Shown: piece after piece, positions 25,229-55,789 of the stretch
How positions within the stretch are numbered: position 1 is the stretch's first letter
Layout: each line of letters starts with the position of its first letter
Source of the DNA: a virus
Strand: one strand, 5' to 3'
Virus record (IMG/VR): IMGVR_UViG_3300043427_004450
Coordinates: 7,984 to 71,983 of that record
Length of the DNA: 64,000 bases
Position numbers and translations under genes: made by a program
The notes under the pieces: generated by a model
Told to the model about the DNA's origin: nothing
Database searches by the model: none
What the model saw: the letters and a program-made list of their open reading frames with translations, nothing else

Positions 25229-26287
25229 TTATCCGTTGTATTTGCAAAATTCGTCATAAGCAATAGGTAGTGGGTCGATATTTAGCATGGCACTAGATAG
25301 AACATGACGAAGCTTTGGATGATTTATTGCAATATCTTTTCTTGATACTCCAGATTTAATCAATTCCTTTGCCTCTTCCCACTCAGATTCTACCGATGCC
25401 CTATATTTTACCCATCGTTCATCAATAGCATCAATCTTTTGATTGATCTCAGCAAAAAATTCATCTGGAATACCATCCATTGAAAACTTTCCCGCTTCCT
25501 TTCTTTGCATCCAAAGCTTAAAAATGCCAGAGTCAGATAGACCAGTAACTACCTTATGAAGTTGAACATAAGTCTCGGTCTTAATCTTGCAGCGTTCTCC
25601 CTTTATATTTTTAAGAACAACGCCTTCAAAGTTTGGATTAACCTCTCTCTTGATCAGATCGTAAGAAAACTCTTCTGCGGTCCAAAGCTTTGGCATTTTG
25701 AATCCAAAGCCTTCTGCATAAGATCTAATCTCTTCTGCGGTTGCTTCGACGGCAGATTGAGTATCTACAATTCCAAGAAGGATTAGCGAATCCTTCTCAT
25801 AATTTCTAACAACATTTATATTTGATGGGCCAACCAACTCAAAAAGATAAGTCTTTTTGTGATCCGCACCAGAAAGAAAGCGTTTGCTGAGAAGATTTGG
25901 AGCGGATAGAGCCTGGTCTGATACCCAGCTTCCACGAGTAATGGTATGCCAAGAGCCTTCCCACCAAAAAGCTACAATTAGTGACCCATCTTCCTTAGTC
26001 CAAATCTCTGAGATTTTATCTGGAGAGAATTCCGAAGAAGAAGCTCCAAGTTCTTCAAAGTTAAAAAACTTCTTGAATGGTCTGGCTGCAACCTCTCCTT
26101 CATTAGAGATTACTAAGCCGCGACAAATAGAATTAACTTCGTTAAAAGCCTTTGAGAACTGAGTTTGCTCAGTGTAGTTATAAATGGAAAGCGGGAGGTT
26201 TGAGTGGGGAATTCTGCGAACTCTACCCAGCTCAACCTCTACCGCTAAATTTGCTAAAAATTCTGCGCTTAACATTAGTCTATCCAC
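25229..26287 (-). CDS. RNA ligase, T4 Rnl1-like
   Basis: CRGLV, PFKKFFN, KEDGSL (motif I), FELV, EGVV and KIK. Confidence 0.9.
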   Translation of the reverse strand: MDRLMLSAEFLANLAVEVELGRVRRIPHSNLPLSIYNYTEQTQFSKAFNEVNSICRGLVISNEGEVAARPFKKFFNFEELGASSSEFSPDKISEIWTKEDGSLIVAFWWEGSWHTITRGSWVSDQALSAPNLLSKRFLSGADHKKTYLFELVGPSNINVVRNYEKDSLILLGIVDTQSAVEATAEEIRSYAEGFGFKMPKLWTAEEFSYDLIKREVNPNFEGVVLKNIKGERCKIKTETYVQLHKVVTGLSDSGIFKLWMQRKEAGKFSMDGIPDEFFAEINQKIDAIDERWVKYRASVESEWEEAKELIKSGVSRKDIAINHPKLRHVLSSAMLNIDPLPIAYDEFCKYNG

Positions 26288-27101
26288 TCCTTATTTAATA
26301 CATTTCATAGCTTTTCCAAATTAAATTGTGCAGAATAGACCGGTGTTTCTAGCACAGGAGAGACTCCTACTTCAACAACTTCAAGCCCCAACACAAACTC
26401 AATGCTACCCTCCACCTTCATTCTTCTTGCTTCTTTTGAAGCATTTGTTATAAAAGCTTTTGCTGGGCCAACATTACCAAAAAGCTTAGTCTTTCTTCCG
26501 AATGGAAAAAATTGATTTTTATAAGCTGGAGTATAAAAGCGTCCTGACTCAGAAAATGTATCAGTTGGACGATGATAAATTGCATAAAGTTTCATATAAA
26601 TATCTTACTTATAGTATTTTCTTTGAATTAAAGATGTAGGATCTTTGCCGTCTCTAATTATTATTCCTTCTTCTGAAACCAAAAGATAATATATCTCATG
26701 CCAAAATACTTCTTTTTTATTTATAATCATTGTTTTTGGCTTTAGATAAGCAATAACAGGCAGCTTAACTCCAGATTTTCTCTGGAGATTAAACTGATCT
26801 ATCAGCCCACTTCCTGCAAAGACTTGGCTGATATCTTTAGATGCAACTCCAGATCCATTTATAAATTCTTCAAGTGTCATTATTCTTTGTATTTAGCTCC
26901 CACCAAACTCGGAGCCACCAATAAAGATACTGAATCTGCTTCTCTAGCAGAACACGAAGTATAATTGAGCCACCAATGCCAAGAGCAAATGCAATTGGAA
27001 TGTTTAGTGGGCCATACACTACCCCCATAGCTCCGCCAAGGATGCCACAGAAGATTGCTGAGATAAGAATTCTAAAGATAAATAGAGAGGTTGGCTCTGA
27101 A

Positions 27102-27647
27102 TCACGCTGCTGCATTTGTGAGACTCCTATTGTGAAGAATAAACTGACGCTGATATTCGTTAAGAAAAACGGAACCTGTAACCATTGTATTTAGGCAGGC
27201 TCCGGGGCCATTCATTTGGATAAATACTGGCTCAGAGTTGTGAATTACCTCGGCAGGAACACCCGTATATTCGTTGCCCATAACGAGAACAGTTGGCCTG
27301 TCAAATGAGAACTGATAATCTGTTAGCTCTGTGGCTCCATCGCAAAGTTCGGCGGATACAATATTATACCCATTTTCGCGACAATGCTGTAGGAAATCAT
27401 GCGGCGTAGCAAACTGAATTATCTTAACATAATCAACAGTAGTTCCAGAACGAGGCCGAAGAAATGCATGGTCAGGTACGGAGCCAATAACCATTACTGA
27501 CTCTGCGCCATAACAAGCTGCCGTTCTGATTAGTAGGGCCAAATTTTCATCAATCCCAAAGTTTACTGCACAAAATGAAACAGGCATAAATTTTGCGGTA
27601 GCAGACTTCTTATCATAACGCTGGCGTCGAGTTTCTGTGCGGTGCAT
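27102..27647 (-). CDS. SpoU/TrmH-family RNA 2'-O-methyltransferase
   Basis: NLALLIRTAACYG, LVMGNEYTGV and IQMNG..CLN SPOUT motifs. Confidence 0.9.
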   Translation of the reverse strand: MHRTETRRQRYDKKSATAKFMPVSFCAVNFGIDENLALLIRTAACYGAESVMVIGSVPDHAFLRPRSGTTVDYVKIIQFATPHDFLQHCRENGYNIVSAELCDGATELTDYQFSFDRPTVLVMGNEYTGVPAEVIHNSEPVFIQMNGPGACLNTMVTGSVFLNEYQRQFILHNRSLTNAAA

Positions 27648-28212
27648 CCTTACTCCGTGTCTCGCTTATTATTTACCCACTCAACGATGGTACTAAATGG
27701 TACTTCCTTTCCAATTAGTGAATTTATCTCTTCTGTTGCTGCATAATTAATATCGCAATCATAGCAGGAGAGGTGATCTCCAAGAAGATATGCAATCTCT
27801 GGAGCATGAGTGGAAACTACCTCAATAAGCTTCCTGTATTCTTTGCTGTCAATATATACATTGTCAAACATATCTGTTCCAATTACTACTGCCTTAGATT
27901 TATCATAAGTATATGTATCAATAGAAGAAAGATTTATAGTTGGGGAACAGATGGAAATATTCTTTTCTCCGCACTTTGGACAAGGAGGAAGCTTAGATAG
28001 TGCCCAATCCTTTGCGTTATCCTTTGCAATCTGCCTCTCTGTGTAGTTCTTATAAGAATCACTGAAGCGGGCATAAGCAGCAAAGAATTCTGGCTCCATC
28101 CCAGAAATATCATCGTTACCAACGGTTGAGAGAAGGTTAATTGCACGCTTGATTTCGGCTTGATTAATAGGCATCAACACTCCTTGGAGGGCTACCTATT
28201 CCCTCCGCGCAT

Positions 28213-28240
28213 AATCTATTCACCGCTCCGTGCGGGTCAA
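28213..28240 (-). promoter_or_regulatory. Sigma70-type promoter TTGACC-N16-TAGATT
   Basis: Direct reading. Confidence 0.7.
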
Positions 28241-28515
28241 TCGGTTTGAAAATAAAAATTAAGGTTTTTCTGAGCCTTCCAAAACTGCCCAGTTTACTGC
28301 AATGAAATCTCCTAGTGCTTCTTCTTGATTTTGGTATGTATGCCCCATACTTTCAGCGGCTTTTACCTGCCTAATTATTGCCTCTTCAGCAGAGCAAGAG
28401 AGATAGGTGATATCACCACATTTGCCAGGTTCTACCCAGACAAGATGACGGTGTAATTTACAGGTGCAATTATGCCAATCTGAGTGCCAACCGCAACCAT
28501 CATCATGTTTTGGCT

Positions 28516-28920
28516 CTAAAGCTTGTTCCATACCAACCATTCCGCAAACAAAGTATACTCCATAAGCTTTTCTAATGACTTAGATTTTGATAAAAATGTA
28601 TTTGGTGATGCAAAGTCATCCAGAAATCTTGAGTCATTATAATAAAAATTAATTTCATAGTTTAAAGGATTTCTTTCGCAATAAAAAGAAAACTCTCCAA
28701 TAAAAACACTCTTATCATAAAAAGCTAAAATAATAAGATCTCTTGATTGAATGCCTGCAATTGGTGGAAAATACTCAAAAAGAACTTTTATTGATGAATC
28801 CGGTGAAAGATTGACCTCACCAAGAGAACCCCTTCCATAAAAAGATCCTGGTGGTCTTTTTAATATATTTCTTTCATCAAGAATATTTAATAATTTTTTA
28901 TCAGTAAAGCTTGGTTTCAT
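28516..28920 (-). CDS. Hypothetical protein, C-terminal EWLxWN family
   Basis: Ends FAEWLVWNKL. Confidence 0.55.
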   Translation of the reverse strand: MKPSFTDKKLLNILDERNILKRPPGSFYGRGSLGEVNLSPDSSIKVLFEYFPPIAGIQSRDLIILAFYDKSVFIGEFSFYCERNPLNYEINFYYNDSRFLDDFASPNTFLSKSKSLEKLMEYTLFAEWLVWNKL

Positions 28921-28949
28921 GTTTTTGTGGTAATTATTTTTATAATATT

Positions 28950-30095
28950 ATGATTAACATACTATATTTTATTTTAGCCTGCTCTGATTATGAGCTAAAG
29001 CAAAAAAATCCAGAACCAAATGATGAAGATCCCGCAATAGAAGTTACTCCAGATAGTATCTTATTTTCAGAAATTCCAAGCGGATCAACCGTTACAGAAA
29101 ATGTAACGATAAGATCTGTTGGTGGAATAACTCTAAATGTTTTAAATATAGAACTTAACTCCGGATTTAACTTTGAGCTTATAAATGTTGGTCCTGTTTC
29201 TTTGGCACCAGAGGAGGAATCTAATTTTATAGTAAAATGGACTTCAGAAGGCGTAGAAGATTCAGATTCAATAGTAATAACTTCAAACGATCCTGTTAAC
29301 TCTAGAGTCGTTGTTCCTATAAATGGTACTCCAGAGGAAGAGGAAATTACTGATACCGGAGAGACTGGAACTCCAATTTCTCAACCTGTCGCAGTTTGCT
29401 CCGTTGACCCAGTAGAAGTAGAGGCAATACATGGAACGGCAGATTGGATAGGCTCCTCTTCTTATGATCCAAGCGGTGGCACAATAACGACTTATGATTG
29501 GAGCCTTGTTTCTGTTCCATCAGGCTCCCCAGACTCTATGCCTACCGGTGGAGCAAATAGAAGAAATTTCTCACCAACAATTGTAGGAGAATATATTGGA
29601 CAGCTAATAGTAACAAGCTCTACAGGCCTAACATCAGAGCCTTGCTATGCAACACTTACCGCAATTCCGGGTGGAAATCTTTGGATTGAAATGTTCTGGC
29701 AAAATTCTGGTGATGATATGGATCTTCATTTGGTAAAGCCCGGCGGCTCTTTAGCTTCCTCTGGAGATTGTTATTATGCAAACTGCACAAGTGGAACACT
29801 TGACTGGGGTATTGCCGGAGACAGAAGAGATAATCCAATCTTAGATCTCGATGATATTCCAGGTACAGGACCAGAAAACATAAACATTGACTCTCCAGCA
29901 AATGGACTTTATACAGTTTATGTTCATGATTATCCCGGCTCAGTTTATAACGGAAGAAATGATGTTACCGTCAATGTTTACGTTGGTGGATTTTTAGAAT
30001 GGACTGATACTAGAAACATAAACTCAGAAGGATATTATGCTCCATTCTGTGAAATAGATTGGGTTTCTGGCTCAGGATCAGTCACATCATTATAA
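28950..30095 (+). CDS. Lipoprotein with Ig-like (ASH-type), PKD-like and YfaP-like domains
   Basis: Lipobox YFILAC; ITSNDP; GSSSYDP..YDWSL; DMDLHL...LDLDDIPGTGPENINI...YTVYVH. Confidence 0.7.
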   Translation: MINILYFILACSDYELKQKNPEPNDEDPAIEVTPDSILFSEIPSGSTVTENVTIRSVGGITLNVLNIELNSGFNFELINVGPVSLAPEEESNFIVKWTSEGVEDSDSIVITSNDPVNSRVVVPINGTPEEEEITDTGETGTPISQPVAVCSVDPVEVEAIHGTADWIGSSSYDPSGGTITTYDWSLVSVPSGSPDSMPTGGANRRNFSPTIVGEYIGQLIVTSSTGLTSEPCYATLTAIPGGNLWIEMFWQNSGDDMDLHLVKPGGSLASSGDCYYANCTSGTLDWGIAGDRRDNPILDLDDIPGTGPENINIDSPANGLYTVYVHDYPGSVYNGRNDVTVNVYVGGFLEWTDTRNINSEGYYAPFCEIDWVSGSGSVTSL

Positions 30096-30415
30096 ATTCC
30101 ATCAAATATTTCTGGATGCCAGATAAAAAATTCAAAATCATCTGGATATAATTGCATAATTTTTTGCAAAAAGATATCTTTTGGATAGTCAAAGAATCTT
30201 TTTTGCTCATCAAAAACAGAATATACGCACTTTATAGTCCAAATTGACCAAGATATATCTCCGCTTTCGTCATAGCATGTGATATCTAAGTCTGGCCTAT
30301 TTCCGCCAATTATTCTGGTTACACCCTCTAAAATTATAATCTTATTAAATACTCCGCCCCTATCAATAAGATTAAATGGAGAGTTGTTCTCAAAAAAAAT
30401 AACTTCTTTTTTCAT
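30035..30415 (-). CDS. Hypothetical protein, YPDDFEFFIWHPE C-terminal family
   Basis: Motif near the C-terminus. Confidence 0.55.
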   Translation of the reverse strand: MKKEVIFFENNSPFNLIDRGGVFNKIIILEGVTRIIGGNRPDLDITCYDESGDISWSIWTIKCVYSVFDEQKRFFDYPKDIFLQKIMQLYPDDFEFFIWHPEIFDGIYNDVTDPEPETQSISQNGA

Positions 30416-30423
30416 TATTATTT

Positions 30424-30822
30424 TTATATTTTACCAAAATACATTAGGGCTTGCCTATTGAATTCTCCATATGGTCCTGCAATTAATTCTTCGGCAGTTG
30501 CCCAAACTGCATCGCCTTCATCTGGATTTTTCTGAAGAGCTTTTGAAGATTCTTCATCTAAATCGGCAGAAAATATCCAGACAGTAAAGCCGTCCTTTTC
30601 GTTTTTTGCTATAAAAGGATTTAGCATATGAATAAAAATAGACCAGCCTGTTTCTTCAAGACACTCTCTGTATGCCGTCTGATGAGGTAGTTCACTATCA
30701 TCTGATTTTCCACATGGTAAAGAAACACCAGAGCCTTCACTTTTCTTTCTTTTAAAGGCAAGATATAATCTTGGATCATTTGGATGCTGAACCAGCACCC
30801 CTGCCGCAGTCTTCTCTTTCAT
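30424..30822 (-). CDS. NUDIX hydrolase
   Basis: Nudix box GKSDDSELPHQTAYRECLEETG. Confidence 0.9.
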   Translation of the reverse strand: MKEKTAAGVLVQHPNDPRLYLAFKRKKSEGSGVSLPCGKSDDSELPHQTAYRECLEETGWSIFIHMLNPFIAKNEKDGFTVWIFSADLDEESSKALQKNPDEGDAVWATAEELIAGPYGEFNRQALMYFGKI

Positions 30823-31019
30823 ATATGTTATTCCACAAAAGATTGGTAGTTATTATTTATCAGGAAAGATCTTTAAAGTAATTTTTGAAAAAAGAGTCAT
30901 CCAATTAAAATAAATGCGATAAAGATCTTCATCTTCCGCAATAATCTTCATTACCTTTGCAACTTTTGGATGCGGAATAATCTTCATTGTTTTTCCAAGT
31001 TTTACTTTAAATGGAAGTA

Positions 31020-32294
31020 TCACCAAGAACCTCTTAAGATACTTGGTATATCAAATCCTCCATCTTCATTTTGATAAAGCTCTATTATTGCTGCAACACA
31101 TCTTCCTACTGCAAGACCGGATGCATTAAGAGTATGAAGAAACTCATTCTTTCCAGATGCAGCCTTATATTTTAGGTTGGCACGACGAGCCTGAAAGTCC
31201 CAGAAAAGAGTGGCAGATGAAATCTCTCGATAAGCACCCTGTCCTGCCATCCAAACCTCAATATCGTAACCCTTGTATCCACCAAAGCCAAGGTCTGCGG
31301 TACAACGCTCAATTACTCTATATGGCAAACCCAACTCCTGCAATACTGATTCAGCATCAGCAGTAATCTTTTCAAGTTCTGCCTGCGATTCAGATGGATT
31401 ACAGAAAGATACAAGCTCTACTTTGTGAAACTGATGAAGTCTAATTAGACCTTTAATATCTCGACCGGCTGAACCCGCCTCTGCCCTAAAGCAAGGCGTA
31501 AATGCAACGTGTCTAATTGGAAGTGAATCTTCCGAAAGAATAACGTCGCGATAGAGGTTTGTCACAGGAACTTCTGCCGTTGGAATTAAAAATCCATCTT
31601 CACCGCCCAATTTGGCAGTTACTTTGAATAAATCTTCTTCAAATTTTGGAAGCTGACCTGTTCCTGTCATTGTTGTGCGAGTTACAATGTAGGGTACTGC
31701 AACCTCAGTATAACCTCTGCTGGTATGCCAATCAAGAAAAAAGTTTGTCAAGCGACGATCAAGCTTTGCTACATCGCCTTTCATTACCATAAATCTTGAA
31801 CCAGAAAGCTTTGCACCATCTTCTCCAGATAGAGTTCCGGTGTTTTCTCCAATTTGATCGTGAGTTAATGTCTTCTTTACTGCAAGATGATCTCCCCAAG
31901 AACGAACAACAGGATTGTCAGAGTCTCCTTCTCCATCTGGTGTTGAGTCAGATGAAATGTTTGGAATATGAAGAAGAAGCTCTTCTTCTTTCTCCTGAAG
32001 AGGAAGAAGAGAAGCCTCCAGATTTTGGATTTTCTGTTTAAGCTCAACCAAAGAAGATTGCTCGACCTCTCTTTCTTCTTTGGTAAGGCTCTTTGCCTTT
32101 TGTCCAAACTCTTTGCTTCTAATGTTCATTTCTCCTCTAAACTTATCGAGGAGAGATTGTGTTTCTTTTCTTGTTCTAATCAAAGATCCAATTTCACAAA
32201 GATAAGTGGATATTTCCTCATTTTTTCCAGACTTTCTCTTTATCTTTGCTACTGTTGAATCATAATCTTTTATGAATAAATTTTTATCTAACAT
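31020..32294 (-). CDS. serS: Seryl-tRNA synthetase
   Basis: N-terminal coiled coil, GTGQLPKFEEDLF, LIPTAEVP, FRAEAG, GLIRLHQFHKVE and HTLNASGLAVGR. Confidence 0.97.
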   Translation of the reverse strand: MLDKNLFIKDYDSTVAKIKRKSGKNEEISTYLCEIGSLIRTRKETQSLLDKFRGEMNIRSKEFGQKAKSLTKEEREVEQSSLVELKQKIQNLEASLLPLQEKEEELLLHIPNISSDSTPDGEGDSDNPVVRSWGDHLAVKKTLTHDQIGENTGTLSGEDGAKLSGSRFMVMKGDVAKLDRRLTNFFLDWHTSRGYTEVAVPYIVTRTTMTGTGQLPKFEEDLFKVTAKLGGEDGFLIPTAEVPVTNLYRDVILSEDSLPIRHVAFTPCFRAEAGSAGRDIKGLIRLHQFHKVELVSFCNPSESQAELEKITADAESVLQELGLPYRVIERCTADLGFGGYKGYDIEVWMAGQGAYREISSATLFWDFQARRANLKYKAASGKNEFLHTLNASGLAVGRCVAAIIELYQNEDGGFDIPSILRGSW

Positions 32295-47000: not shown

Positions 47001-47546
47001 ATGGAAAAGTCAAAGCTCAAACATCTTTATATTTCTAAGAGGTTAACGCAAAGTCAGATTGCAGAAAGAATGGGCTGCTCAGAGAGCAAGGTTAAATATT
47101 ATCTTCAAAAATATGACTTAGTAAAAAAAGAGATCCTAACTTCAACAGATGAAACTCCAAAGATCTGCTCCAGCTGTAATGTGGAAAAACCTGGAACAGA
47201 ATTTTATATGAAGTCATGGAAGGGAAAGAAGGTTGTAGGATCAGTCTGCAAGATTTGCGCTAAGGGCAAAACAATGAGCAGGAAAAGATCTAATAAAGCA
47301 ACCTACGTTAAAATGAAGGGAGGCTGCTGTCAAGCCTGTGGTTTTGATAAGTATGATGGTGCTTTAGAATTTCACCATGTTGACCCAACCACAAAGGAAG
47401 ATAGAATTGGAAGAATGGCAAAAGGGCCTTCTTCCCCAGAGTTATTGGCAGAATTAGCAAAGTGTGTTTTGGTTTGCTCAAACTGCCATAAGATGATTCA
47501 TGCTGGAATTATAGAATGTCCACCACTAAATCAGGATAAAGTTTAA
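47001..47546 (+). CDS. HTH + HNH homing-type endonuclease
   Basis: HTH TQSQIAERMGCS; CQACG; LEFHHVDP; KCVLVCSNCHKMIH. Confidence 0.88.
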   Translation: MEKSKLKHLYISKRLTQSQIAERMGCSESKVKYYLQKYDLVKKEILTSTDETPKICSSCNVEKPGTEFYMKSWKGKKVVGSVCKICAKGKTMSRKRSNKATYVKMKGGCCQACGFDKYDGALEFHHVDPTTKEDRIGRMAKGPSSPELLAELAKCVLVCSNCHKMIHAGIIECPPLNQDKV

Positions 47547-47903
47547 TTAGCCAAGATTCCAAAGGCACCATTCAAAAAATACCTTATGATTCTCCATCTT
47601 CTGGAGAAACTTTTCTTTTGAAAGAATAATTGAGTCATCAGCATACTTTGTTACTAGAGTATTGTCACTTAAATTTAAAAAAGCATGAAAGCTTCCACGC
47701 TGTTTATGGCCATCAATAACAAAATAGAATCCAAATGTTGGTGAAGAATATACAGTATGATACCATTTTATGCCATGCTTTTCGTCAAGGGCTTTATATT
47801 TATTCTTATAACCCCTTCTAATTTTTAAACTACCATCTTTATTTAGAAAGTCTTTATCTACGACGGCTACGCCAAAATCTTGTGGTGTAAATTTTTTCTT
47901 CAT
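47547..47903 (-). CDS. Hypothetical protein, C-terminal FEWxLWN family
   Basis: Ends FFEWCLWNLG. Start moved to MKKKF, downstream of the terminator. Confidence 0.6.
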   Translation of the reverse strand: MKKKFTPQDFGVAVVDKDFLNKDGSLKIRRGYKNKYKALDEKHGIKWYHTVYSSPTFGFYFVIDGHKQRGSFHAFLNLSDNTLVTKYADDSIILSKEKFLQKMENHKVFFEWCLWNLG

Positions 47904-47913
47904 AGTTAAATCC

Positions 47914-47952
47914 AAAAAGAAAGCCGCCAGACTATTTACTAGTGCTGGCGGC
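47914..47952 (-). terminator. Intrinsic terminator after tRNA-Gly
   Basis: GCCGCCAG/CTGGCGGC stem followed by TTTCTTTTT. Confidence 0.8.
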
Positions 47953-47965
47953 AAGATTAAGAATT

Positions 47966-48036
47966 AGCAGGCAACCAGATTCGAACTGGTGATAAAAGGA
48001 TGGAAACCTTTTGTGTTACCGCTACACCATGCCTGC
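47966..48036 (-). tRNA. tRNA-Gly(TCC)
   Basis: Cloverleaf; AAAGG-TT TCC AT-CCTTT; GTTCGAATC; no encoded CCA. Confidence 0.92.
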
Positions 48037-48044
48037 GATGTTAA

Positions 48045-48341
48045 GCAGAGAGAGGTTGGCAAGGGTACTAAACCTTGCTCCTTACATAATCTTTGGATTA
48101 TTCGGTCAAGAGTCTCCGACGAACCGCGAATTCATCATCAATGACTCTGCTGGATTAACCAGCATAAGGTGTTCTTTCTAGTCCGTATAAGCACCTTAAT
48201 TATTTGGATAACGGAACGACACAGCCCTTCGTTATCCTCCTATACCTTATCCTCTAATTATCTCAGACGTATCCTGTGTCTGGCGACACTGCATGACTCC
48301 CCAAAAGATAAGGGATTTAACATGCTTCAACCTCTCCCTGC
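48045..48341 (-). ncRNA. Unassigned ~297-nt structured RNA
   Basis: A 14-bp stem joins the ends and encloses at least 7 hairpins; TATAAT just upstream; no credible ORF. Confidence 0.7.
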
Positions 48342-48688
48342 AATATTATAGTACCCATGATGATTAGATAAAAGCTAAAAAATTATTCTTCAATATTAAT
48401 CCACCTAGTACATTCTGGAGTCACGACAGATTCTGAACCATCATACTCATCAATCTTATAGAGTGGAGAATCAATGGTGGCAATACAAATATTAGAATAA
48501 TCACCAGATGCTTCCTCTACAAGTTCTTCTATCACTTGAATTAGAAGAGGATGGTGACGCGGCATATCCTCATATTCATAATGACGATCATACTTAACGC
48601 CAAGTTCCTTTAGTCGTTCAACTGCCTTATTTGAAAGGCTGAAGCCACCATAGCATCCGTTAAAAGCAACCTTGTAAGTTTTAGACAT

Positions 48689-49048
48689 TTAATCTCCCGT
48701 TGTATAGTCGTCTGCTGGAGTCCAGCCTGATTCACCAAGATCTAGCTCGTAAAAATTTGACTTGCAAACAATATCAGATACTCCTGCCTTAAATCTCTTG
48801 GAACCATTAAGTCCAATATTTTGATCTAGCGACTCTGTATCTGCAACATTTATGCAGGTTGTTTCTTTTGTCCTTTCATCAAACTTACAAAAAGTAATTC
48901 TTGAAGTTAGAAAATTACTTCCGCACATTACGTCTGATGCAATATAAAACTCACCCGATCCACCGCCCGTAGAAATTGAGTTTATACGAGAGGTTGGCCC
49001 ATGATATACCGACTTAACGGTACAGGCAAGGAGCATTATAAAAATCAT
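48689..49048 (-). CDS. Small putative lipoprotein
   Basis: MIFIMLLAC. Confidence 0.5.
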   Translation of the reverse strand: MIFIMLLACTVKSVYHGPTSRINSISTGGGSGEFYIASDVMCGSNFLTSRITFCKFDERTKETTCINVADTESLDQNIGLNGSKRFKAGVSDIVCKSNFYELDLGESGWTPADDYTTGD

Positions 49049-49066
49049 TTAATCTCCAAGTTAAAG

Positions 49067-49143
49067 TGGCGATCCCAGCTGGACTCTAACCAGCGACCTA
49101 TTTTTTAGGAAAAAATTGCTCTATACAGCTGAGCTATGGGATC
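49067..49143 (-). tRNA. tRNA-Arg(CCT)
   Basis: Cloverleaf with CCA; all-A/U anticodon stem; T-loop TTAGAGT. Confidence 0.85.
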
Positions 49144-50811
49144 TTATATCAATTCATTTTACCAATTCTATCACATTTTCTCAGCAGAAAAGACCTGCTG
49201 ATGAACTACCTCTGCTACTGAAATTGAAGGAATAACCCTCACAATCTCTAGTCCAAGGCAAAATTCAAGATCCGGCTTAAAATGTTTCTTGCAGTAATTG
49301 GTAAAGTTTGTTAAAGATCTCTTGCAACCCATTCTACTCCAATAAAGGTGAGGAAAAGCATCATCACCTAATGGCTTAAAACCAAACCTAGAAGGAACAT
49401 CCCAAGTAGACCAAGTATCTGTTGGGCGATGATAGATTGCAAAATATTCGTTCATACCTTACCTCTAGGCTACCTTTCTCTGAAGATCCGCAAGATTCTT
49501 ACATGATGTAATCTTAGCGATCCAGCTTGCAACCTCATTTGCCGTGACATAACCTTGGACGGTATCTCCACCAAAGTCTAGCCAAGTGCCAGCTTCATCC
49601 CAAATCCCAATCTCGGCATCCTCTGAGGAATGAATACCGTCTGTTTCTAGATTTGCCATAGCAATAGTGGGTCGCTCCATCTTATGCTCGCAGTAACTTC
49701 CTCCGCGAAACATAACGGAAATTGTTAGACCGTTATCAAATGTCATCTGAAAGCCACCAGAAACAATTGCAAACTTGCTAGTACCGTTTTCCATTTTATA
49801 CTCCTTAGATTAGTTTACTTCACATTCGTTGATTGTGTAATATTCGCCCCAATTATTTGTAAAGTAGCGAATAACGCTGGCTCCGACTTCTTCTTCCCAT
49901 TTGTGCTCTATATTTTCACCATCCTCATCTTCTTCTATCTCTGGAGGAAGATTCAGAATGTAATTTGCGGCATCCTCTTCTTTGGAGAAAACCTTGACGA
50001 CAATAGAGCCTTCTTGATAGTAACCATGAGAAACAACGTAGACTTTCATCGTTCTTTAACCAACAATTCTGCATCAACAATTTTAACACGACAATCTGGC
50101 ATAAATGCTACAAGCTCCCCTGTTGCAAGACTAACTGCGTTAAAGTAATTTTCATTGGCATCATAGATTTCCTCTACTTTCATAAAGTAATTGTGAAAAT
50201 AATTGTGTCCATCGCAAAAGGTAACACCAATACCAACATTATTCCAATCGGTTTTGTTTTTATCATTTTCAACAATAGTGACTTTCATTTAGTCTCCAAA
50301 AATTTCTTTAAGGTTGCCAATTGAGCAGTTCTTACCGTGACTCTGGTTTGCATTACCTCTACAACACGAATAGCGAGCATAGAATCTTCCATACCCTCCA
50401 TCCTTATTGCGTTCAACAAAGTCCGGCATGTCACTGACGAGATTCTTGATCTTCTTAAGTAGGACTAGAGCTTCTTCGTGACTAAGCTTTGAAATATCAA
50501 TCATTTTTCAGTCCATTCGCGAAGGTCAACGATATCCCACCAGTCATAGTTTCTTCCATCAATCTGATGAGATTTTCCAGTAATTTCCTCTTGACCTTTG
50601 CGTTTGCCGTGAGTAATTATTCTTTTATGCTCCACAAAAGTTACTTTTGTGGCTGCCTCTTCATAAGTTGAGAAGCAACCAATCCAATTTCCTGTGTATG
50701 CTTCGGGATAATAATTGTCACCAGCAATAAGTAAAAATCGTTTCATTCTGACACCTTCTTATTTGCCATATTATCCTTGGCTGAATTCGCGGTGTTCCTT
50801 CCCGCCTCTAG

Positions 50812-55712: not shown

Positions 55713-55789
55713 TGGTGCCCCACCGCGAATTCGAATCGCGACTGTACCCATTTTGAGCGGGTTTCCTCTACCGGTTGGGATAGTGGGGC
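55713..55789 (-). tRNA. tRNA-Leu(CAA), short variable loop
   Basis: ACCCG-CT CAA AA-TGGGT; ACCA; 77 nt. Confidence 0.88.

What the first reader, a model, noticed from the sequence alone, without database searches (positions are those of the whole stretch)
48045..48341. Unassigned ~297-nt highly structured RNA immediately upstream of tRNA-Gly
Seen (minus strand): 5'-GCAGGGAGAGGUUG pairs with CAACCUCUCUCUGC-3' over 14 bp. The one non-Watson-Crick pair is G-U on this strand only, which fixes the orientation. Enclosed hairpins: GCAUG..UCCCUUA/UUGGGGA..CAUGC, CAGAC/GUCUG, GGAUAACG/CGUUAUCC, UAAGGUG/CACCUUA, UGCUGG/CCAGCA and AUAAUC/GAUUAU. A final GCAAGG-UUUAGUAC-CCUUGC abuts the closing stem like a T-arm. 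TATAAT lies 3 nt upstream and tRNA-Gly starts 8 nt downstream. It lacks the hallmarks of tmRNA, RNase P and SRP RNA and is shorter than GOLLD or ROOL, which also occur in phage tRNA regions. Inference: a new large phage ncRNA class.
Basis: partly seen in the sequence, partly recalled or inferred. Interest (0 to 1): 0.85.

Follow-up and report, generated by a model that had tools for sequence, protein, structure and literature searches.

The report
Possibly circular folded phage RNA
An uncultured freshwater phage carries, next to a glycine tRNA gene, a gene for a tightly folded RNA of about 285 bases that fits no known RNA family and that environmental RNA data show joined end to end, as a closed ring would be.

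Summary
Window 48341-48045 (minus strand) folds far better than shuffles (z -6.6). A 14-bp stem closes it, a TATAAT box precedes it, and tRNA-Gly plus a terminator hairpin follow.

It matches no Rfam family and is not a tmRNA.

I found only three other copies, 97.6-99.3% identical, in metagenome contigs. Their flanking genes are only 78-97% identical.

Contigs of four of four river and lake RNA libraries carry it:
- One variant contig has two fully compensatory pair changes in one hairpin.
- Two of the four libraries join base 289 head to tail to base 5 or 6, giving circles of 285 and 284 nt.

The phage encodes a T4 Rnl1-type RNA ligase and a NUDIX hydrolase.

Best reading: a real non-coding RNA gene of an undescribed family, probably ligated into a circle. 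Its function is unknown.

Weak points: one narrow lineage, little covariation, and a circle seen only in assembled contigs.

Earlier notes of this scan report similar, possibly circular, stem-closed phage RNAs on other DNA (e1-5411767, e1-5706161, e1-5830164, e1-5818726). I did not check them.

The parts
48345..48350 (-). TATAAT -10-like box, 3 nt before base 1. It would put transcription start at about bases 4-6 of the element.
   Evidence: Sequence. No good -35, so the consensus scan did not list it. Identical in L019, L020 and L021. The start site is inferred, not mapped.
48045..48341 (-).
   Evidence: MFE -112.7 kcal/mol, z -6.63. No Rfam match. Single copy in the 71,983-base virus record.
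48053..48337 (-). RNA as found in RNA libraries: bases 5-289, 285 nt. Its ends are joined head to tail in contigs of 2 of the 4 runs laid.
   Evidence: The X15 contig of 315 nt has the joint 48337->48053 with identical 30-nt ends, which makes a 285-nt cycle. The X17 contig runs 16-289 and then 11 letters equal to bases 6-16.
48328..48341 (-). 5' strand of the 14-bp closing stem (bases 1-14). Bases 1-4 occur in none of the 5 RNA contigs.
48045..48058 (-). 3' strand of the closing stem (bases 284-297). The joint lies after base 289. Only the X16 contig runs on, to base 292.
48206..48237 (-). Hairpin 105-112/129-136 with an inner extension. It is the only helix with compensatory changes.
   Evidence: X17 contig 4 changes A110-U131 to G-C, C111-G130 to U-A and A109-U132 to G-U. 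C136U keeps G105-U136 in L020, L021 and X16.
48109..48148 (-). Long hairpin 194-207/220-233.
   Evidence: The variants C221U and G222A both keep their pairs, as G-U and U-A.
48059..48078 (-). Hairpin 264-269/278-283 with an 8-base loop, abutting the closing stem. Together with pairs 9-14/284-289 it could form a 12-bp stack.
   Evidence: U280C in L020 breaks one pair. The stacking is inferred.
48037..48044 (-). 8-nt spacer between the element and tRNA-Gly.
   Evidence: Identical in all 4 DNA copies.
47966..48036 (-). tRNA-Gly(UCC) with no encoded CCA, presumably co-transcribed.
   Evidence: ARAGORN. Rfam tRNA model 64.8 bits. 100% identical in L019-L021.
47914..47952 (-). Terminator-like GC-rich hairpin followed by a U run, closing the two-gene unit.
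   Evidence: Fold -22.2 kcal/mol, z -5.6.
25229..26287 (-). T4 Rnl1-type RNA ligase gene, the candidate sealing enzyme.
   Evidence: PF09511, 62 bits against a cut-off of 28.3. It matches T4 RNA ligase 1 chain 2c5u_A at E 1e-11, and the lysine-bearing motif aligns. Its link to the RNA is inferred.
30424..30822 (-). NUDIX hydrolase gene. It could turn a 5'-triphosphate end into a 5'-monophosphate.
   Evidence: PF00293, 47.3 bits. This role is pure inference.

Best explanation
This is a real phage gene for a structured non-coding RNA of an undescribed family.

Shown:
- The element has its own -10-like box and shares a terminator-like hairpin with the tRNA-Gly(UCC) gene 8 nt downstream.
- It folds into a rosette of about nine hairpins closed by a 14-bp stem.
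- RNA libraries from rivers and a lake contain it as a species spanning bases 5-289.
- In two of the four libraries examined, base 289 is joined to base 5 or 6.

Inferred, with my odds:
- The mature RNA is a covalently closed circle of 284-285 nt (about 0.5).
- Its 5' end is the transcription start, 8-9 nt after the -10 box, trimmed to a monophosphate, perhaps by the phage NUDIX enzyme (about 0.3).
- Its 3' end comes from a cut inside the closing stem, 12 bp from the loop of the last hairpin. A tRNA 3'-processing enzyme that measures such a minihelix could make that cut (about 0.2).
- The phage's own Rnl1-type ligase seals the break, which then sits in a 4-base loop on a 6-bp stem (about 0.3).
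- A closed ring would resist exonucleases and accumulate. I guess that it acts as an RNA-only scaffold or decoy aimed at the translation or tRNA machinery, as is suspected for other large phage RNAs found beside tRNA genes (about 0.2).
For: Structure:
- z -6.63, with 0 of 200 shuffles as stable.
- The minus strand is 23 kcal/mol better than the plus strand.

Gene layout:
- TATAAT lies 3 nt upstream, tRNA-Gly 8 nt downstream, then a hairpin plus U run with z -5.6.

No known family:
- All 13 gathering-level Rfam hits in the window are tRNAs.
- At E <= 10 over 47800-48500 the only hits are tRNA-Gly and three matches at E 2.9-7.2.
- ARAGORN finds 14 tRNAs and no tmRNA.

Conservation:
- 3 of 177 fetched foreign loci hold it.
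- The RNA is 99.3, 97.6 and 98.0% identical in L019, L020 and L021.
- The upstream ORF is 96.4, 90.8 and 97.5% identical, and the downstream ORF 82.9, 78.4 and 80.4%.

Variation, over 20 variable columns in 9 sequences or contigs:
- 7 columns are unpaired in the MFE.
- 9 keep their pairs. These include two pairs changed on both sides, A110-U131 to G-C and C111-G130 to U-A, both in one contig.
- G-U-compatible changes occur at 109, 136, 221, 222 and 297. On the plus strand these would be A-C mismatches.

RNA libraries:
- 4 of 4 runs laid give contigs on the element: 3 at >=99%, 1 at 95-99% and 1 at 90-95% likeness.
- X15 gives a 315-nt contig whose first and last 30 nt coincide, with the joint 48337->48053.
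- X17 gives a 285-nt contig that crosses the same site, one G shorter.
- All four assembled DNA copies are collinear, not permuted.

Ligase:
- PF09511 at 62 bits.
- Matches T4 RNA ligase 1 at E 1e-11.
- NUDIX at 47 bits.
Against: - Covariation is thin. The four DNA copies alone show 0 pairs changed on both sides. The two compensatory pairs come from a single contig of word depth 6.4.
- Four variants break predicted pairs: G55A (L019 and X17 contig 4), U280C (L020), G10A with a 2-nt deletion opposite (L020), and U131C alone (X16, depth 3.8).
- No relative more distant than 97.6% was found in 199 fetched loci or 44 whole viral records. The syntenic stretch of a related phage, G002, lacks the RNA and the tRNA.
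- The circle rests on assembled contigs of 2 of 4 runs, and their joints differ by one G. The X16 contig runs 3 nt past the joint in genomic register. The X19 contig is a single fragment between adapters.
- Contigs give no strand, no read counts and no true ends (tool text).
- The six RNA studies are of one year and habitat and may be one campaign.
- I did not test whether the joined form also stands in DNA runs.
- I laid no linear control RNA in the same runs.
- No polynucleotide kinase, RtcB or Rnl2 was found in the 72-kb record, which is 37% complete.
- Function is a guess.
Confidence: 0.6

Rival explanations
1. It is a real, abundant but linear stable RNA ending near bases 5 and 289. On this reading the head-to-tail joints are artefacts of library making or assembly, for example reverse transcriptase jumping from the 5' end of one molecule to the 3' end of another.
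For: - The two joints differ by one G, as untemplated additions or ragged ends would give.
- X16 runs past base 289 in genomic register.
- Only contigs were available, with no read counts.
- Earlier notes of this scan report circles for several unrelated freshwater phage RNAs in similar libraries. That could also point to a systematic artefact.
Against: - The X15 contig is a clean cycle with identical 30-nt ends and no loose end, so every word across the joint was kept by the assembler.
- No strand-changing joints were listed. Blunt joining of cDNAs should give them.
- The adapters seen in X19 are of the kind ligated to double-stranded cDNA, not to RNA. That is my reading of the adapter ends, from memory.
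Confidence: 0.28
2. It is only a structured leader of the tRNA-Gly transcript. It would be a processing or stability element with no function of its own, and what the libraries hold is debris.
For: It lies 8 nt before the tRNA, inside one promoter-terminator unit.
Against: - 297 nt with about nine hairpins is far more than a leader needs.
- It is conserved almost like the tRNA, at 97.6-99.3%, while the neighbouring genes drift.
- It assembles in 4 of 4 RNA runs laid, and as a closed cycle in one of them.
Confidence: 0.07
3. It is a very divergent member of a known RNA family, such as tmRNA, RNase P RNA, SRP RNA, 6S, Y RNA, ROOL, GOLLD, an intron or a self-cleaving ribozyme cassette.
For: - It lies among tRNA genes, as tmRNA-like RNAs, Y-like RNAs, ROOL and GOLLD often do (ROOL and GOLLD: PMC12286853, passages read).
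- Paired 5' and 3' ends are common to several of these families.
Against: - No Rfam model reaches even E 10 on the element.
- ARAGORN finds no tmRNA.
- The record holds no Ro60/TROVE gene, no reverse transcriptase and no splicing endonuclease.
Confidence: 0.04
4. It is a DNA-level element, or it codes for protein. Candidates are a miniature transposon with 14-bp terminal inverted repeats, a small ORF (21 codons from base 19), or one of the antisense ORFs of 51-60 codons.
For: - 14-bp inverted ends.
- The plus strand also folds well, z -5.16.
- ORFs are listed on the plus strand.
- The module is absent from the syntenic site of G002.
Against: - One copy in the record and none in 44 related or unrelated viral records.
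- The changes at 109, 136, 221, 222 and 297 keep G-U pairs only on the minus-strand RNA.
- Of the 4 variants inside the 21-codon ORF, 3 change the residue, by my own reading.
- The joined form in RNA libraries fits neither idea.
Confidence: 0.03

Closest known systems
ROOL and GOLLD, large ornate RNAs of phages and prophages
   Same: - Phage-encoded, elaborately folded and of unknown function.
- Often found near tRNA islands (PMC12286853, passages read).
   Different: - No match to any Rfam model, at gathering scores or at E <= 10.
- Much smaller, at 285-297 nt. GOLLD members often exceed 800 nt (same paper).
- A simple rosette closed by one stem.
- A head-to-tail joined form, which the passages I read do not mention for ROOL or GOLLD ('circular' occurs 0 times in that text).
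Phage T4 stable RNAs C and D (species 1 and 2) of the T4 tRNA cluster. Recalled from memory; no paper was found.
   Same: Small stable RNAs of unknown function encoded within a phage tRNA transcription unit.
   Different: As I recall they are shorter and linear. I had no sequence to compare, so membership was not tested.
Archaeal circular non-coding RNAs, made either by bulge-helix-bulge cutting (EndA) and ligation or by the Rnl3-type ligase Pab1020
   Same: - Structured non-coding RNAs whose ends are joined by a cellular RNA ligase (PMC12558985, passages read).
- The two ends here are offset by 4 bp across a helix, as in a bulge-helix-bulge motif. The geometry of that motif is recalled.
   Different: - The stem here has no bulges.
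- No splicing-endonuclease domain in the record.
- The virus has bacterial-type features: a -10 box, an intrinsic terminator and an endolysin.
- Its ligase is Rnl1-type, not Rnl3 or RtcB.
T4 RNA ligase 1, which repairs broken tRNA loops
   Same: The phage ligase matches T4 Rnl1. After joining, the break here would sit in a hairpin loop. As I recall, that is the kind of substrate Rnl1 seals in tRNA anticodon loops.
   Different: - No polynucleotide kinase partner was found in the partial record.
- The proposed substrate is a phage RNA made to be closed, not a damaged tRNA.
- Nothing here shows that the enzyme acts on it.
Bacterial circular RNAs in general
   Same: It would be a circular non-coding RNA made in a bacterial cell.
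   Different: PMC12558985 says that few circular RNAs are known in bacteria. For bacteria it names self-splicing introns and DucS (passages). This RNA shows no intron or ribozyme model hit and is phage-encoded.

Membership tests
tmRNA | tRNA-like acceptor and T-arm domain plus a tag reading frame, as detected by ARAGORN or the Rfam tmRNA models | tested here: not met
   ARAGORN finds 14 tRNAs and no tmRNA. No Rfam hit at E <= 10.
RNase P RNA, SRP RNA, 6S RNA | Match to the family covariance model | tested here: not met
   None among the gathering-level hits or the E <= 10 hits on 47800-48500.
ROOL / GOLLD | Match to the Rfam models, and a size of several hundred to more than 800 nt | tested here: not met
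   No hit. The element is 297 nt.
Y RNA / YrlA | Terminal stem plus a tRNA-like module, next to a Ro60 (TROVE) gene | tested here: not met
   No Rfam hit. No TROVE domain in the 72-kb record, but the record is only 37% complete.
Retron / DRT-type template RNA | Adjacent reverse transcriptase gene | tested here: not met
   No RVT_1 match in the record.
Self-cleaving ribozyme cassette that frees a circle (hammerhead, twister, hatchet, HDV-like) | Ribozyme model match at or beside the cut sites | tested here: inconclusive
   No ribozyme model hit at E <= 10 in 47800-48500. A motif that spans the joint would be seen only in a permuted sequence, which the tool cannot take.
Group I or group II intron circle | Intron core model match | tested here: not met
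   No intron family among the hits.
Archaeal bulge-helix-bulge circular RNA | Two 3-nt bulges around a 4-bp helix, and an EndA endonuclease | tested here: not met
   The stem is a continuous 14 bp. No tRNA_int_endo domain. Only the 4-bp offset of the ends resembles the motif.
Covalently closed circular RNA (topology, not a family) | Head-to-tail junction in RNA but not in DNA, and exonuclease resistance | tested here: inconclusive
   The junction is in contigs of 2 of 4 RNA runs. Four assembled DNA copies are collinear.
Structured RNA under selection (general) | Compensatory base-pair changes among homologues | tested here: inconclusive
   0 double changes among the 4 DNA copies. 2 double changes and several G-U-compatible changes once the RNA-run contigs are added. 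4 pair-breaking variants.

The most novel reading that the evidence does not exclude
A DNA phage deliberately makes a covalently closed circular non-coding RNA. The gene is flanked by a stem that brings the ends together. The 5' end is the transcription start, the 3' end is cut in the stem, and the phage's own Rnl1-type ligase closes the ring. The known 'repair' ligase of phages would then also have a biosynthetic job. The ring would be one example of an unrecognised class of phage circular RNAs encoded in tRNA operons, and some 'viroid-like' circles in lake RNA surveys would be phage gene products.
Probability: 0.35. Interest if true: 0.88.

Novelty: new variant of a known kind. Interest (0 to 1): 0.74.

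Why it matters
Large folded RNAs beside phage tRNA genes, such as ROOL and GOLLD, are among the least understood products of phage genomes. This one is small enough to study easily. It turns up in RNA libraries from rivers and a lake, and in DNA runs of seven studies apart from the two marked as possible sources of this DNA.

It also comes with a testable biogenesis: a defined junction, and a candidate ligase in the same genome.

If the ring is real, three things follow:
- It would be a natural ligase-made circular RNA in a bacterial system, where few circular RNAs are known (PMC12558985).
- It would give phage Rnl1-type ligases a second role besides tRNA repair.
- It would offer a natural design for producing stable circular RNA in bacteria.

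Tried and rejected
Searches for homologues that found nothing useful:
- blastn against 50,697 phage records hit only the tRNA-Gly part.
- An earlier-findings look-up by sequence and one by place (relatives) were both empty.
- Exact or N-gapped patterns in viral contigs gave 0, 1 and 1 stretches. The two hits were chance, since model R1 did not match them.
- The downstream 118-aa protein has no relative in viral contigs.
- The upstream 101-aa protein belongs to a large family: 28 proteins, 413 relatives in metagenome contigs and 376 in viral contigs, of which the best 80 each were kept, and 22 in genome contigs.
- Only L019, L020 and L021 carry the RNA, by blastn and nhmmer on 177 foreign loci and by model R1.
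- R1 over 44 whole viral records gave nothing better than E 0.2 and 8.8 bits.

Relatives of the phage:
- G001 (seryl-tRNA synthetase 90% identical, ligase 95%) looked at first as if it lacked the RNA. Its contig is collinear with the window and ends before this region, so it says nothing.

Promoter and motifs:
- The extended -10 context is not a repeated motif. It gave 8 matches against 4.8 expected, and 15 of 100 shuffles did as well.
- The sigma-70 scan does not list this promoter or this terminator.
- Shine-Dalgarno-like tetramers are mildly enriched, 13 against 6.7 +/- 2.8, with 54 of 2000 shuffles as high. The test was post hoc, so I treat it only as a lead.

Cover in the RNA runs:
- In one search the flanks (47400-48049 and 48338-49200) had no cover in any of the 4 RNA runs.
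- The shares of 0.48-0.56 of the sampled words in the RNA runs are likewise only compatible with partial cover.

Literature:
- Four searches for a phage DNA-encoded circular non-coding RNA listed none that I recognised from titles and abstracts.
- One search for the T4 stable RNAs found no paper.
- PMC9911046 is not held.
- Supplementary files were not consulted.

Full report
WHAT IS THERE. I number the RNA from its first base, so RNA position p = window 48342 - p, on the minus strand.
A 14-bp closing stem (1-14 with 284-297) has G5-U293 as its only wobble pair. The named hairpins are present. A last hairpin (264-283) abuts the stem.
- TATAAT lies 3 nt upstream. tRNA-Gly(UCC) starts 8 nt downstream.
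- After the tRNA comes a GC-rich hairpin and a U run (fold -22.2 kcal/mol, z -5.6). The element and the tRNA therefore look like one small transcription unit.
- The 297 nt fold to -112.7 kcal/mol against -77.2 +/- 5.4 for shuffles (z -6.63, 0 of 200 as good). The opposite strand reaches only -89.3.
- The fold is a rosette of about nine hairpins in one multiloop. Two places have alternative pairings: 53-57/62-66 against 60-64/74-78, and 92-98 against 144-150, both pairing with 171-178.

IS IT A KNOWN RNA?
- Rfam at gathering scores finds 13 tRNAs in the window and nothing else.
- With permissive filters and E up to 10 on 47800-48500, the only real hit is tRNA-Gly.
- ARAGORN finds 14 tRNAs and no tmRNA.
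- The 72-kb virus record has no Ro60/TROVE gene, no reverse transcriptase, no splicing endonuclease and no RtcB. The record is 37% complete by CheckV.

WHERE ELSE IS IT?
- The record holds one copy.
- Through the upstream 101-aa gene (phrog_16527) I fetched 160 loci from metagenome and viral contigs and 22 from genomes.
- Only three metagenome contigs, L019, L020 and L021, carry the RNA.
- A covariance model of the four copies (R1) found nothing in 44 whole viral records.
- In the three copies the RNA is 99.3, 97.6 and 98.0% identical and the tRNA 100%. The upstream gene is 96.4, 90.8 and 97.5% identical, and the downstream gene 82.9, 78.4 and 80.4%. The RNA is thus held nearly as tightly as the tRNA.
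- A more distant relative of the phage, G002, has different content and no tRNA at the syntenic site. The module is therefore accessory.
- Twenty sequencing runs hold the stretch: 14 DNA runs from freshwater or rivers and 6 RNA runs. Leaving out the two studies marked as possible sources, the DNA runs come from seven studies. The six RNA studies are of one year and similar habitat and may be one campaign.

RNA LIBRARIES. I laid four RNA runs on window 47400-49200. All four gave contigs on the element.
- X15 covers bases 5-289.
- X16 covers bases 14-292.
- X17 gave two contigs, covering 16-289 and 25-227.
- X19 covers bases 20-279, between sequencing adapters.
- The X15 contig is 315 nt long and its first and last 30 nt are the same window stretch. 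The listed joint is 48337->48053 ('goes back 285'). That is a closed cycle of 285 words, in which U289 is followed by G5.
- The main X17 contig runs from base 16 to 289 and then carries 11 letters that equal bases 6-16. That is the same junction, one G shorter.
- No contig contains bases 1-4. Only X16 goes past 289, by three letters.
- All four assembled DNA copies are collinear.
- The tool warns that contigs show neither strand, level nor true ends, and that uncovered parts are not evidence. I therefore use only what the contigs cover and join.

VARIATION AND STRUCTURE.
- The four DNA copies alone give no pair changed on both sides.
- Adding the RNA-run contigs gives 20 variable columns.
- The second X17 contig, with 10 substitutions in 203 nt, changes five bases of hairpin 105-112/129-136. 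A110-U131 becomes G-C, C111-G130 becomes U-A, and A109-U132 becomes G-U.
- C136U, C221U, G222A and C297U also keep their pairs, as G-U or U-A on the minus-strand RNA only.
- Against the fold, G55A (two sequences), U280C, G10A with a 2-nt deletion opposite, and U131C alone break predicted pairs.
- This is real but thin support for the structure. It is strongest for one helix.

HOW THE ENDS MIGHT ARISE (inference).
- The -10 box ends 7 nt before G5, so G5 or G6 is a normal distance for a transcription start. That would also explain the one-base raggedness of the joint.
- The 3' end, U289, is the twelfth base from the loop of the last hairpin along a continuous 3' strand. Six pairs of that hairpin plus pairs 9-14/284-289 make a 12-bp stack. 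As I recall, that is the length of a tRNA acceptor and T-arm minihelix, which tRNA end-processing enzymes measure.
- After joining, the break would sit in a 4-base loop (bases 5-8) on the 6-bp stem 9-14/284-289.
- The window encodes an Rnl1-type RNA ligase at 25229-26287 (PF09511, 62 bits). It matches T4 RNA ligase 1 at E 1e-11 with the lysine motif aligned.
- Near it lie a SpoU-type RNA methylase, a NUDIX hydrolase and a seryl-tRNA synthetase.
- As I recall, T4 Rnl1 is the classic enzyme for sealing breaks in tRNA loops and for closing RNA rings in vitro. A NUDIX enzyme could supply the needed 5'-monophosphate.
- None of these steps is shown.

RIVALS.
- The main rival is a linear stable RNA whose joints are artefacts. 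I give it about 0.28. The joints differ by one base, and the libraries may be a single campaign. Against it, the X15 cycle is clean and no strand-changing joints appear.
- A mere tRNA leader, a divergent known family, a transposon-like DNA element or a small ORF all fit the data worse (see the Rival explanations section).

COMPARISON WITH WHAT IS KNOWN.
- In lifestyle the element resembles ROOL and GOLLD: phage RNAs near tRNA islands with unknown function (PMC12286853, passages read). It also resembles the T4 stable RNAs of the tRNA cluster, which I cite from memory only.
- It is not a member of any tested family.
- Ligase-made circular non-coding RNAs are documented in archaea. The review-like text of PMC12558985 says that few circular RNAs are known in bacteria (passages).
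- My four literature searches listed no phage DNA-encoded, stem-flanked circular non-coding RNA. This judgement rests on titles and abstracts only.

EARLIER NOTES OF THIS SCAN.
- Notes on other genomes describe similar cases. One is a 274-nt element closed by a 13-bp stem, with its own promoter, co-transcribed with tRNA-Leu, and joined head to tail in 2 of 4 lake RNA data sets (e1-5411767). Others are roughly 185-197-nt phage RNAs seen as circles (e1-5706161, e1-5830164, e1-5818726).
- They share no sequence words with this element.
- I did not test them, and they are not independent evidence.
- They cut both ways: either phage RNA rings are common in freshwater, or these libraries produce such joints systematically.

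VERDICT.
- The element is very likely (about 0.85) a genuine structured RNA gene of an undescribed family, carried in RNA libraries.
- It is about even odds that its mature form is a closed ring.
- Its function is unknown.

Noticed in passing
window 25229-32294: A cluster of RNA and translation genes on the minus strand: Rnl1-type RNA ligase (25229-26287), SpoU-family RNA methylase (27102-27647), NUDIX hydrolase (30424-30822) and seryl-tRNA synthetase (31020-32294; 45% identical to a gene annotated serS in an Acinetobacter phage record)..
   Followed up: partly
window 48165-48250 (RNA bases 92-98, 144-150 and 171-178): Two upstream segments can each pair perfectly with the same downstream segment, 171-178. 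The MFE uses 92-98 and the centroid uses 144-150. This could be a structural switch. No variant falls in these segments.
   Followed up: no
window 48045-48341: Shine-Dalgarno-like purine tetramers (GGAG, GAGG, AGGA) occur 13 times against 6.7 +/- 2.8 in dinucleotide shuffles, and 54 of 2000 shuffles reach that count. Several lie in predicted junctions. The count was post hoc, and ribosome binding is only a thought.
   Followed up: partly
L020:1623-1917: This natural variant has G10A together with a 2-nt deletion in the opposite strand of the closing stem. That turns two pairs into a 2-base bulge right at the site where the RNA's 3' end is formed.
   Followed up: no
window 47001-47546 (+): An HNH endonuclease gene on the opposite strand, one gene away from the tRNA-Gly unit. 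The stretch from 47521 to 49376 is replaced by other genes in the related record G002.
   Followed up: partly
window 55713-55789: ARAGORN calls a tRNA-Leu(CAA) here, but the Rfam tRNA model does not list it at gathering score (13 tRNAs against ARAGORN's 14).
   Followed up: no
run X19, window 48063-48322: The RNA-run contig is a single 260-nt fragment flanked on both sides by sequencing-adapter ends. One fragment with fixed ends seems to dominate that library.
   Followed up: no
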